Shown: positions 18,411 to 20,288 of the stretch, in pieces | How the letters are laid out: each line of letters begins with the position of its first letter | Position numbering within the stretch: the first letter of the stretch is position 1 | Assembly: GCA_038872135.1 (NCBI GenBank) | Contig: JAVZGN010000003.1 | Coordinates: 18,683 to 82,682 of the forward strand | Length of the DNA: 64,000 nt | Origin: Candidatus Hadarchaeales archaeon | Lineage (GTDB): Archaea; Hadarchaeota; Hadarchaeia; Hadarchaeales; Hadarchaeaceae | Reading direction: 5' to 3' | Translations under genes and position numbers: made by a program | The notes under the pieces: model-generated | Told to the model about the DNA's origin: nothing | Seen by the model: only the letters and a program-made list of their open reading frames with translations | Databases searched by the model: none

Positions 18411-18426
18411 TTGCTCAAAGCAAAAT

Positions 18427-20211
18427 TTATTTTTCTTTTTTTGCTTCTTCAACCCAGGCAAACTTCTTTTGCAGGGTTTTGGGGTAAATCTTTTTCCAGT
18501 CGTAACCGATTTCTCCGGCCCAGATGGCGTAAACTCTCGGGTCTATGTAGCTCTTCAGGGATGTCCCTAGGTTATAATCTCTGGTTTCCCTGGCTAGTTT
18601 TAATTTCAATTTTGCGCTTTCTATCTTTTTCTCCATCGATTCAATTCTTCTTTTCATCTGCTCTTTCAGCTTGGTTTTTCTTTCGGAAAACTCCTTCCTG
18701 GAATTATCTATTCGCTTTTTTTCCTCTTTCATTCTCTTGAGCAGCTTCGAAACCATCTTTCTGTTCTTCCGCCTTCTTGCCTCCTCCAGCTTCTTCTCAA
18801 TGATATTCAATTTCTCCCGTCTCTGGGCGATTTTTGTGTCAAACTTTTTCTCAAGCTCCTTCTCAGCCACGACAAACTTCTCCTTCAGAGCCTCCAGCTT
18901 CTCTCTCATCCCCCTCAATTTCTCCTCCTTCTTTTCCATCGACTCCCTCCAGTTCTTTGGCAGCTTTCTCTTGTGGTGGCATTCAATTGCGGCCTGAAGG
19001 TTGGCCATCGTCGCCACATACTTCTTCATCTCCTCTGGGCTACTTTTCTCAATCCCGCTGCGGGAAAGAAAGTCAGAGACGACTTTTGTCGCATGGTAAG
19101 TTCGGAAGACCTTGGCGGTCAATCCCGGCATGGCCTCATTCAAAAATTCATTCACAAGTTCAGATCTCACCCCGTCAAAAATTTGCTCCCGCGGCCCCTT
19201 CATAAAACTTCTAATGTTCTCGATCACTTGAGCCGGGAGTTCCACCTCTTTCACCCATCTCACAGAATCCTTCCCAAGAAAGTCGAATGTTACTCTTCCA
19301 TCACCGCCAATCTTCACATGAGAACCTCTCAGGGTAGTCGCTCCAACTGTGTCCGCCTCATCCTTGTCCTTCTCATCCCCCACCCTGAACTTTAATGTGT
19401 CAATGAGATACGCTACTGTGGCTATTTTTCTTCTCAGGGGGTCCTCAGCCGTCAGCCCCTTCCAGATGTGCTCCCTGACTTTAGGCAGATACTCCTCAAG
19501 CTTTCTTGCAGTGTCAAACTTCTCTCTTTCCCTTATCTGTCTGAGGGCTGCACTTTCAGCTATCCATACATATTTCATCTTCCCTGTCAGCTTGTCCCTC
19601 CATTTTGCGACCCAGAGAGCGTTTGGATCAAATTCTACTCCTCCCCAGGGTTCTCCCGTCGGCGTCGGAGGGGGATCGCATGAAAGATTCAAAATGATAT
19701 CGGAATATTTGACCCTTGGCTTCCATCTTCCCCTGAGAGGATGTTTTCCCCGTCCCATGAAGATGCAGGGCGGCTCAACCATATAATTTCCTATTTCGAC
19801 TTTTTCCCCGTTAATTATCGCATACCCATACTTCTCCTTTTTCTCTTCCCTCGCCCTCTTCCTCTCCTCGGCCAGCCTCTTTTTCTCTTCCTTTGTCATT
19901 TTTTCCTTGGCGATTTTTTGCTCATCAACCCATCTGATGATTTCTGAAAAATCGAAGTCCTCGGGAGACACCTCCTCCTGAATCCCAAGAGCTTTGGAAA
20001 AATCGCTGAAAAAATTCCTGACGAAAACAGGATCTTTAACATAGTCGGTTCCAAGCTTCTTCACCCATGCCACGGCCATCTCCTCCTGCTCGGGGGTAAG
20101 GGCTATCCGTTTACCGCGGTACCTTATTTTGAAGCCGATTGGCTCATACTCCGGGATGAGAACACCATTGTGCTTTATCTCCCAAATTCTCGCAGGCCAC
20201 AGCTTCTTCAT
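18427..20211 (-). CDS. DNA topoisomerase IB, eukaryote-like
   Basis: Core motifs HNGV, EPPCIFMGRGKHPLRG, WVAKWRD and catalytic pentad FRVGDEKD (R), FLGKDS (K), AKVFRTY (R), CHH (H), TSLKSYIDPRV (Y); coiled-coil linker. Confidence 0.95.
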   Translation of the reverse strand: MKKLWPARIWEIKHNGVLIPEYEPIGFKIRYRGKRIALTPEQEEMAVAWVKKLGTDYVKDPVFVRNFFSDFSKALGIQEEVSPEDFDFSEIIRWVDEQKIAKEKMTKEEKKRLAEERKRAREEKKEKYGYAIINGEKVEIGNYMVEPPCIFMGRGKHPLRGRWKPRVKYSDIILNLSCDPPPTPTGEPWGGVEFDPNALWVAKWRDKLTGKMKYVWIAESAALRQIREREKFDTARKLEEYLPKVREHIWKGLTAEDPLRRKIATVAYLIDTLKFRVGDEKDKDEADTVGATTLRGSHVKIGGDGRVTFDFLGKDSVRWVKEVELPAQVIENIRSFMKGPREQIFDGVRSELVNEFLNEAMPGLTAKVFRTYHATKVVSDFLSRSGIEKSSPEEMKKYVATMANLQAAIECHHKRKLPKNWRESMEKKEEKLRGMREKLEALKEKFVVAEKELEKKFDTKIAQRREKLNIIEKKLEEARRRKNRKMVSKLLKRMKEEKKRIDNSRKEFSERKTKLKEQMKRRIESMEKKIESAKLKLKLARETRDYNLGTSLKSYIDPRVYAIWAGEIGYDWKKIYPKTLQKKFAWVEEAKKEK

Positions 20212-20288
20212 ACTCCCATTCAGAAAAGACCTCGGCTTCTTATACTCTTTTGCCGGCGTGCGTGTCTATAGATCCTCTCAAACTGTGC

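What the first reader, a model, noticed from the sequence alone, without database searches (positions are those of the whole stretch)
18427..20211. Eukaryote-like topoisomerase IB with an unusually long linker in a genome that otherwise looks euryarchaeal-affiliated
All five catalytic residues are present. Cellular eukaryote-type Topo IB in archaea is best known from Thaumarchaeota and related TACK lineages, whereas flanking genes here resemble Thermococcales/methanogen repertoires (taxonomy is inference). The catalytic His-to-Tyr spacing is about 142 aa, versus 91 in human Top1 (H632-Y723). This implies a coiled-coil linker about 50 aa longer, which could alter controlled rotation and camptothecin sensitivity. 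The gene lies directly downstream of the Mo-oxidoreductase operon rather than among replication genes.
Basis: partly seen in the sequence, partly recalled or inferred. Interest (0 to 1): 0.65.

Follow-up and report, generated by a model that had tools for sequence, protein, structure and literature searches.

The report
Hadarchaeota topoisomerase IB, long linker
This is an intact eukaryote-type DNA-relaxing enzyme (topoisomerase IB) of an uncultured Hadarchaeota archaeon; most of that phylum carries the gene, and its extra-long coiled-coil arm is a genus-level variant of a kind that arose several times in archaea, so it is a tidy but fairly ordinary find.

Summary
The ORF 18427-20211(-) encodes a 594-aa long-form topoisomerase IB. 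It has all three Pfam domains, the catalytic residues R295/K314/R370/H413/Y555, and a His-to-Tyr spacing of 142, against 91 in human and 67 in Caldiarchaeum CsTOP1.

The genome is Hadarchaeota (NCBI kingdom Methanobacteriati), so "euryarchaeal-affiliated" is right. The gene is not an oddity of this genome:
- 42 of 66 Hadarchaeota species genomes carry it.
- Their copies form one well-supported clan that largely follows family and genus.
- That clan nests inside Thermoproteota-type (Bathyarchaeia/Methanomethylicia) enzymes (AU p 1e-5). This points to an old transfer followed by vertical descent.

The ancestral spacing in the phylum is 73-74. The long form (133-146) is confined to the window's genus plus one other genome.

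AlphaFold2 predicts a confident helical hairpin of 60 + 59 residues, roughly 90 Å long. The roughly 74 extra residues sit at its tip and are under purifying selection (dN/dS about 0.11).

Comparable elongations occur in Aenigmatarchaeota and Bathyarchaeia, with at least 4 changes on the tree, and are common in eukaryote-like sequences. Among family representatives, 30 of 102 have a spacing of 142 or more.

The link to the Mo-oxidoreductase operon is not conserved among congeners. Ser554 occupies the position of human N722, a residue implicated in camptothecin resistance. Interest is modest.

The parts
18427..20211 (-). Complete topoisomerase IB gene (594 aa, long eukaryote/archaeal type)
   Evidence: ORF list; Pfam; PDB sequence search, best hit 6z01 at E 1.6e-148; AF2 model with pLDDT 92 and pTM 0.80
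19564..20178 (-). CAP / DNA-binding fragment (Topoisom_I_N, residues 12-216)
   Evidence: PF02919, 201.8 bits
18877..19551 (-). Catalytic core (Topoisom_I, residues 221-445) with R295, K314, R370 and H413 (His codon at 18973-18975)
   Evidence: PF01028, 225.6 bits; residues checked; conserved in the alignment (K314, R370, H413 invariant; R295 nearly invariant)
18586..18951 (-). Linker: predicted antiparallel helical hairpin with helix 421-480, turn 481-483 and helix 484-542
   Evidence: DSSP on the AF2 model, block pLDDT 94-97. The 141 residues between His and Tyr have K+R 52, D+E 26 and net charge +26
18655..18876 (-). Lineage-specific tip extension of the linker (about residues 446-519), absent from short-linker Hadarchaeota enzymes
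   Evidence: Alignment of linker regions; PDB alignment gap at query 445-520; dN/dS about 0.11 against the nearest relative; GC3 and K/E/R codon use match the rest of the gene
18436..18633 (-). C-terminal domain (Topo_C_assoc, residues 527-592) with the active-site Tyr555 (codon 18547-18549), preceded by Ser554
   Evidence: PF14370, 67.5 bits; motif LKSYIDPR
20237..20250 (-). Possible archaeal BRE/TATA-like element (AAAGAGTATAAGAA) centred about 30 nt upstream of the ATG. Read by eye only.
   Evidence: Sequence of the 77-bp gap. This is inference; no archaeal promoter tool or transcript data were available

Best explanation
The gene encodes a functional long-form (eukaryote/archaeal-type) type IB DNA topoisomerase of a Hadarchaeota archaeon.

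Mechanism, inferred from the family: the CAP and CAT lobes clamp duplex DNA. Tyr555, assisted by R295, K314, R370 and H413, cuts one strand and forms a 3'-phosphotyrosyl link. The downstream duplex then swivels, releasing positive or negative supercoils, and the strand is resealed.

In this genome the enzyme sits beside one type IA enzyme and Topo VI. No gyrase or reverse gyrase was found, so it is probably the main ATP-independent swivel for transcription and replication.

The gene was acquired long ago by a Hadarchaeota ancestor from a Thermoproteota (Bathyarchaeia/Methanomethylicia-like) lineage and has since been inherited vertically.

In the window's genus, the basic coiled-coil linker that lies along the rotating downstream DNA was lengthened at its tip by about 60-72 residues, from 74 to 133-146 in His-Tyr spacing. 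This gives a hairpin of roughly 90 Å that is kept under purifying selection. Its likeliest effect is more DNA contact, meaning higher processivity and more friction on rotation. That last step is inference only.
For: Identity and integrity:
- Pfam gives three domains.
- All five catalytic residues are present.
- The sequence matches CsTOP1 at E 1.6e-148 and human TOP1 at about 1e-83.
- The AF2 model has pLDDT 92 and TM 0.74-0.79 to human TOP1-DNA complexes.

Taxonomy:
- The nearest proteins and contigs are named Hadarchaeales, Hadesarchaea or Hadarchaeum.
- The NCBI lineage runs through Methanobacteriati.

Distribution and descent:
- PF01028 is found in 42 of 66 genomes of the phylum, and in 20 of 26 high-quality ones.
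- The 38 Hadarchaeota sequences form one clan with support 99/96*, and families and genera mostly group together.
- That clan is nested among Bathyarchaeia and Methanomethylicia sequences, with Caldarchaeales and Nitrososphaeraceae sequences further out.
- Forcing the other archaeal sequences into one clan costs 72 lnL units, with p-AU 1e-5.

Linker:
- Spacing is 73-74 in 32 Hadarchaeota genomes and 71 in one (G046).
- Spacing is 133-146 in all four genomes of the window's genus plus G030. These form a clade with support 96/73, with the short-linker G031 as sister at 99/94*.
- The hairpin is predicted with helices 421-480 and 484-542.
- The insert has pN 0.20 against pS 0.70, giving omega of about 0.11, compared with 0.05 in the catalytic domains.
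- Net charge of the His-Tyr segment is +26.

Topoisomerase complement of the genome:
- One type IA enzyme is present.
- Topo VI-A is present.
- No reverse gyrase scores over the cut-off.
- No GyrA/ParC domain is found.

Role of the linker in relaxation and DNA contact: PMC8748870.
Against:
- The transfer direction rests on rooting with eukaryote-like sequences.
- Many archaeal representatives in the tree are unnamed.
- The group tested by AU was named after a tree had been seen.
- dS is near saturation, so omega values are rough.
- The functional effect of the longer linker is untested. The linker is dispensable for catalysis in the human enzyme (my recollection of the linker-deletion literature, not checked here). 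Length varies from 133 to 146 within one genus, so part of the length may be functionally neutral.
- G030 (long) and G031 (short) are placed in one genus, which a single clean expansion does not explain. G030's gene is on a 5.6-kb contig.
- The assembly is 91% complete, so absence of reverse gyrase is not proven. Three congeners have it.
Confidence: 0.8

Rival explanations
1. The long linker is a selectively near-neutral length variant. Coiled-coil hairpins grow and shrink easily, and the extension changes nothing important in enzyme behaviour.
For: - The insert is the least conserved part of the protein, at 65% identity against 87-96% elsewhere when compared with the nearest relative.
- Length varies 133/136/142/146 within one genus.
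- Elongations recur in unrelated lineages, and spacing ranges from 52 to 317 across the family.
- There is no association with reverse gyrase. It is present in 3 of 17 genomes with long linkers and 8 of 69 with short ones.
Against: - Omega of about 0.11 in the insert shows amino-acid constraint.
- The helical hairpin is predicted with pLDDT 94-97.
- Length is retained in all five Hadarchaeota long-form species reps at 60-73% identity, and no intermediate lengths between 74 and 133 were seen in the phylum.
Confidence: 0.3
2. The gene is a recent horizontal acquisition, or a binning contaminant, from a TACK archaeon and is not a genuine Hadarchaeota gene.
For: - The closest non-Hadarchaeota relatives are Bathyarchaeia, Methanomethylicia and Aenigmatarchaeota at 50-63% identity.
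- The literature historically restricted long TopIB to Thaumarchaeota (PMC4824112).
Against: - The gene lies in the middle of a contig more than 64 kb long, between EF-1alpha and housekeeping genes.
- Contamination of the assembly is 0.09%.
- 42 of 66 genomes of the phylum have it, and they form one clan that follows family and genus.
- GC3 and codon use are like the surroundings.
Confidence: 0.03
3. The extended basic hairpin is mainly a protein-protein or second-duplex docking arm rather than a brake on the rotating duplex. Candidate partners are DNA crossovers, chromatin proteins, RNA polymerase or the replisome.
For: - The extension adds only about +8 to +10 net charge over about 70 residues, so it is less basic per residue than the linker base. 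That fits a mixed-charge coiled-coil surface.
- Archaeal enzymes lack the eukaryotic N-terminal targeting domain. This protein starts 11 residues before the CAP domain.
Against: - No partner gene is conserved next to it.
- There is no interaction evidence of any kind.
- The published role of the linker is DNA contact and control of relaxation (PMC8748870).
Confidence: 0.12

Closest known systems
Caldiarchaeum subterraneum TopIB / CsTOP1 (PDB 6z01, 6z03; PMC4824112, PMC8748870)
   Same: It has the same three-domain long-form architecture without the eukaryotic N-terminal tail. It is the best PDB sequence match (E 1.6e-148, aligned over residues 12-445 and 520-591) and has the same catalytic residues.
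   Different: - The CsTOP1 linker is 53-57 aa with His-Tyr spacing 67. Here the spacing is 142, with about 75 extra residues at the hairpin tip.
- CsTOP1 has Asn before the catalytic Tyr, whereas this protein has Ser554.
- The host here is Hadarchaeota, not Thermoproteota.
Human nuclear TOP1 (PDB 1k4t, 1a36, 1rrj)
   Same: The clamp fold matches (TM 0.74-0.79). The catalytic pentad is the same, and an antiparallel coiled-coil linker separates the core from the Tyr-bearing C-terminal domain.
   Different: - Sequence identity is about 30%.
- There is no roughly 200-aa charged N-terminal domain.
- The linker spacing is 51 residues longer (142 against 91).
- Ser occupies the N722 position. 1rrj, an entry from a study of camptothecin-resistance mutations, shows Ser at this position, and N722 is listed among CPT-resistance residues in PMC4824112.
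Short-linker Hadarchaeota TopIB (e.g. Candidatus Hadarchaeum yellowstonense, locus L006/L046)
   Same: It belongs to the same phylum and the same gene clan, at 56-60% identity, with the same domains.
   Different: His-Tyr spacing is 74 instead of 142. The tip extension is missing.
Long-linker archaeal TOP1 of Aenigmatarchaeota, some Bathyarchaeia, and the Asgard (Heimdallarchaeota) enzyme noted in PMC8748870
   Same: Linkers are elongated and K/R/E-rich, with His-Tyr spacing of 103-154. The Asgard case is published as 'substantially longer linker'.
   Different: They lie in separate branches of the gene tree, which needs at least 4 length-class changes. Similarity between the inserts is weak and may only reflect helical periodicity.

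Membership tests
Long-form (eukaryote/archaeal-type) topoisomerase IB, TOP1 | Topoisom_I_N, Topoisom_I and Topo_C_assoc domains in this order, each above the Pfam gathering score | tested here: met
   Scores are 201.8, 225.6 and 67.5 bits against cut-offs of 25, 23.7 and 25.1
Long-form (eukaryote/archaeal-type) topoisomerase IB, TOP1 | Catalytic Arg-Lys-Arg-His plus nucleophilic Tyr in their conserved motifs | tested here: met
   R295, K314, R370, H413 and Y555. K314, R370, H413 and Y555 are invariant and R295 nearly invariant in alignment A1. They align to the human and CsTOP1 residues
Long-form (eukaryote/archaeal-type) topoisomerase IB, TOP1 | Two-lobed clamp fold with a coiled-coil linker before the C-terminal domain | tested here: met
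   AF2 gives pLDDT 92 and pTM 0.80. Foldseek gives TM 0.74-0.79 to human TOP1-DNA structures. This is a prediction, not a solved structure
Long-form (eukaryote/archaeal-type) topoisomerase IB, TOP1 | Relaxation of positive and negative supercoils through a 3'-phosphotyrosyl intermediate, without ATP | not testable with these tools
   This needs purified protein. It has been shown for the homologue CsTopIB (PMC4824112)
Eukaryotic nuclear TOP1 subtype | Long charged N-terminal domain ahead of the CAP domain | tested here: not met
   The CAP domain starts at residue 12 of 594. Eukaryote-like representatives carry extensions of 100-700 aa
Typical archaeal short-linker TOP1 (CsTOP1-like) | Linker of about 53-57 aa (His-Tyr spacing about 56-79) | tested here: not met
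   Spacing here is 142, with a hairpin of 60 + 59 residues
Short bacterial/poxviral topoisomerase IB | About 300-350 aa, small N-terminal domain, no linker | tested here: not met
   Only the catalytic core matches D. radiodurans TopIB (E 3e-09 over residues 242-399; TM 0.25-0.29)

The most novel reading that the evidence does not exclude
The TopIB linker has been lengthened independently at least four times in archaea: in a Hadarchaeota genus, in Aenigmatarchaeota and in two Bathyarchaeia groups. Each time it reached a similar 120-155-residue His-Tyr spacing, which is also common in eukaryotes, and in the Hadarchaeota case examined here the extension is under purifying selection. On this reading the convergence reflects selection for a longer DNA-tracking arm that tunes rotation friction or processivity to the host's chromatin. 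The Hadarchaeota short/long pair (74 against 133-146, otherwise about 60% identical) would then be a natural matched set for testing the controlled-rotation model.
Probability: 0.2. Interest if true: 0.5.

Novelty: new member of a known kind. Interest (0 to 1): 0.3.

Why it matters
It adds modest points for topoisomerase evolution:
1. The long 'eukaryote-type' TopIB is a core gene of most Hadarchaeota, a Methanobacteriati phylum. No paper I could search mentions this. Older papers call the gene a Thaumarchaeota hallmark.
2. The Hadarchaeota copies nest inside Thermoproteota-type enzymes. This is an example of an old inter-phylum transfer of a 'eukaryotic signature' gene and cautions against using it as a lineage marker.
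3. Linker length is evolutionarily plastic and has expanded repeatedly. Closely related short and long forms are available for mechanistic work.
4. TopIB and reverse gyrase coexist in 11 of the genomes examined, including three congeners.

None of this overturns current understanding.

Tried and rejected
- **Reverse gyrase and linker length:** I asked whether the long linker goes with reverse gyrase, as a proxy for hyperthermophily. It does not. Reverse gyrase is present in 3 of 17 genomes with long-linker enzymes and 8 of 69 with short ones.
- **Internal duplication:** I tested whether the insert duplicates the basal hairpin. Self-similarity is only weak (z about 2.8, with 4-7 of 500 shuffles as high), which amphipathic periodicity could explain. 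The result is inconclusive.
- **Shared linker cassette:** I compared the insert with long linkers of other lineages. Similarity is clear within Hadarchaeota (z 4-7) and weak to moderate with Aenigmatarchaeota (z 2-5). Shuffling destroys helix periodicity, so this is inconclusive.
- **Foreign composition:** The insert shows none. GC3 is 0.62 against 0.54-0.57 in the rest of the gene, with the same K/E/R codon choices. The low GC of 0.42 follows from amino-acid content.
- **Link to the Mo-hydroxylase operon:** The gene order is shared with the 85%-identical relative but with none of three congeners. I rejected a functional link.
- **AU test on the 107-row tree:** It did not finish in two attempts. 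I replaced it with a 50-row careful tree and AU test.
- **Heptad periodicity:** Power at period 3.5 is not significant (240 of 2000 shuffles). The peak is near 3.67.
- **NCBIfam:** No hit.
- **Naming unnamed representatives:** This mostly failed. Only P0143 could be named, as Nitrososphaeraceae.

Full report
**1. Observation**

The ORF is exactly as described: 18427..20211 on the minus strand, ATG start, 594 aa.

Pfam finds the three domains of the long-form enzyme:
- Topoisom_I_N at residues 12-216.
- Topoisom_I at residues 221-445.
- Topo_C_assoc at residues 527-592.

NCBIfam has no model for it.

The five catalytic residues are R295, K314, R370, H413 and Y555. In a 12-sequence alignment of diverse homologues, K314, R370, H413 and Y555 are invariant and R295 is nearly invariant.

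His-to-Tyr spacing is 142. The human value of 91 can be read from the chain numbering of 1rrj (H432, Y523). The solved archaeal enzyme CsTOP1 has H410 and Y477, a spacing of 67 (PMC8748870).

The best PDB sequence match is CsTOP1 (6z01, E 1.6e-148). The alignment breaks between query residues 445 and 520, which both map to chain position 443. About 75 residues are therefore extra relative to CsTOP1.

**2. Whose genome**

The nearest proteins are annotated Candidatus Hadarchaeales or Hadarchaeum. P0001 is 85% identical and named 'DNA topoisomerase I'. The matching contigs in the species-representative genome collection are titled Hadarchaeota, Hadesarchaea or Hadarchaeum.

NCBI places Hadarchaeota in the kingdom Methanobacteriati.

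The assembly is 1.08 Mb in 34 contigs, 91% complete with 0.09% contamination.

**3. Distribution and history of the gene**

The catalytic-core family is found in 42 of the 66 species genomes of the phylum, and in 20 of 26 high-quality ones. It is absent from one family of nine genomes.

I built a maximum-likelihood tree of 86 sequences with the linker columns removed. It shows:
- The 38 Hadarchaeota enzymes form one clan (99/96*).
- Two other families of the order group together (100/98*).
- Genera are mostly monophyletic.

This is the pattern of vertical inheritance.

I then added CsTOP1, human TOP1 and unnamed 50%-identity cluster representatives. With these, the archaeal sequences separate from the eukaryote-like ones (100/100*).

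The Hadarchaeota clan sits inside a group of Bathyarchaeia and Methanomethylicia sequences. The Caldarchaeales and Nitrososphaeraceae enzymes branch further out.

In none of 200 bootstrap trees do the other archaeal sequences form one clan. Forcing them to do so is rejected, with delta lnL 72 and p-AU 1e-5.

The best reading is an old transfer from a Thermoproteota lineage into an ancestor of most Hadarchaeota, followed by descent. Three caveats apply:
- The root is taken on eukaryote-like sequences.
- Many representatives are unnamed.
- The tested group was defined after seeing a tree.

**4. The linker**

Spacing by lineage:

| Group | His-Tyr spacing |
|---|---|
| 32 Hadarchaeota genomes | 73-74 |
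| G046 | 71 |
| Window's genus, all four genomes | 142, 133, 146, 136 |
| G030 | 146 |

The long forms are one clade (96/73), with the short-linker G031 as sister (99/94*). No intermediate lengths were seen in the phylum.

The extra residues are at the tip of the hairpin. AlphaFold2, run with a 48-sequence alignment, gives pLDDT 92 and pTM 0.80. It predicts helix 421-480, a three-residue turn and helix 484-542, with block pLDDT of 94-97. At 1.5 Å per residue that is about 90 Å, which is my own arithmetic.

The model is in the closed, human-like conformation. TM is 0.74-0.79 to human TOP1-DNA complexes and 0.45-0.51 to the open apo CsTOP1.

The 141 residues between His and Tyr have 52 K+R and 26 D+E, for a net charge of +26. 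Short linkers average +16 and long ones +24, so the added part is only mildly basic.

Against the 85%-identical relative, the insert shows pN 0.20 and pS 0.70, for omega of about 0.11. The catalytic domains give 0.05. The insert is therefore constrained, though less tightly, and dS is near saturation.

Codon use and GC3 match the rest of the gene.

**5. How unusual is the linker?**

Not very. In the same tree, long linkers (103-154) also occur in an Aenigmatarchaeota group, in two separate Bathyarchaeia branches and in unnamed archaea. The tree needs at least four changes between the short and long classes.

Both motifs could be located in 102 of the family's 50%-identity representatives. Among these, spacing runs from 52 to 317 with a median of 98, and 30 have 142 or more. 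Most of those 30 are eukaryote-like proteins with N-terminal extensions.

PMC8748870 already remarks that most archaeal TOP1 have short linkers but several Asgard genomes encode substantially longer ones.

**6. Context**

Upstream on the same strand lie genes for the large (MoCoBD), FAD-binding and 2Fe-2S subunits of a Mo-hydroxylase. Downstream, convergent, are a cyclase-family gene and EF-1alpha.

The same order is found in the 85%-identical relative. None of three congeners shares it, and only the cyclase neighbour is shared with G031. The adjacency therefore carries no functional signal.

The 77-bp gap contains AAAGAGTATAAGAA centred about 30 nt upstream of the ATG. I read this as a possible BRE/TATA for a leaderless or nearly leaderless transcript. 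This is inference only.

**7. Topoisomerase complement**

The genome has one type IA enzyme and Topo VI-A. It has no GyrA/ParC domain and no reverse gyrase above the cut-off.

Three of its four congeners do have reverse gyrase, as do four short-linker Hadarchaeota. Four short-linker Thermoproteota genomes also have it, but none of 12 long-linker non-Hadarchaeota genomes does. Linker length is therefore not tied to reverse gyrase.

**8. Camptothecin**

CsTopIB is resistant to camptothecins (PMC4824112). Sensitivity in chimeras needed the human linker and C-terminal domain (PMC8748870).

This protein has Ser554 where the human enzyme has N722. N722 is among the residues implicated in resistance. 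The top human PDB hit, 1rrj, comes from a study of resistance mutations and shows Ser at that position.

I therefore expect resistance regardless of linker length. This is inference.

**9. Verdict**

This is a real, intact, almost certainly active TopIB. It is a new member of a known family in a phylum where the literature I could search does not mention it, although public records already annotate it.

The long linker is a genus-level, selectively maintained tip extension of a kind that recurs across archaea and eukaryotes. Its functional consequence is untested.

Noticed in passing
G000 whole genome; congeners G043:C4:40719-43982, G045:C17:227-3820, G044:C2:39092-42677: Reverse gyrase is present in three of the four genomes of the window's genus but was not found in the window's own 91%-complete assembly. 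In G044 it is split into two abutting ORFs, a helicase half and a topoisomerase half overlapping by 2 nt, which could be a split gene or a frameshift.
   Followed up: partly
P0031 (919 aa); probably also P0132, P0137, P0142, P0127: Some archaeal TopIB genes carry intein domains (Pfam PF14528 and PF14890 in P0031), which inflates their length to 800-940 aa.
   Followed up: no
P0131 (781 aa) and P0219 (991 aa): The extreme His-Tyr spacings are 263, in an archaeal-type sequence, and 317, in a eukaryote-like sequence. Both are far longer than the one examined here.
   Followed up: no
L049 = L035 (JASEJC010000017.1, genome G042): This NCBI record is titled 'Candidatus Hodarchaeaceae archaeon' (an Asgard name). 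The genome collection places it in the window's Hadarchaeota family, and its TopIB sits inside the Hadarchaeota clan. This is probably a naming slip.
   Followed up: partly
L060-L064, L074, L082 (Aenigmatarchaeota loci): Aenigmatarchaeota (DPANN) TopIBs nest inside Bathyarchaeia sequences (100/98*). This suggests a separate transfer into DPANN, and all of these copies have long linkers.
   Followed up: partly
L022 (G030, 5.6-kb contig) and L007 (G031): Two genomes placed in the same genus carry a long (146) and a short (74) linker TopIB. This could reflect mis-binning of the short contig, gene exchange, or loss of the extension.
   Followed up: no
window 18411-19786, plus strand: Several 100-145-aa ORFs lie on the strand opposite the TopIB gene. 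They are low-complexity shadows of the purine-rich coding strand and have no support as genes.
   Followed up: partly
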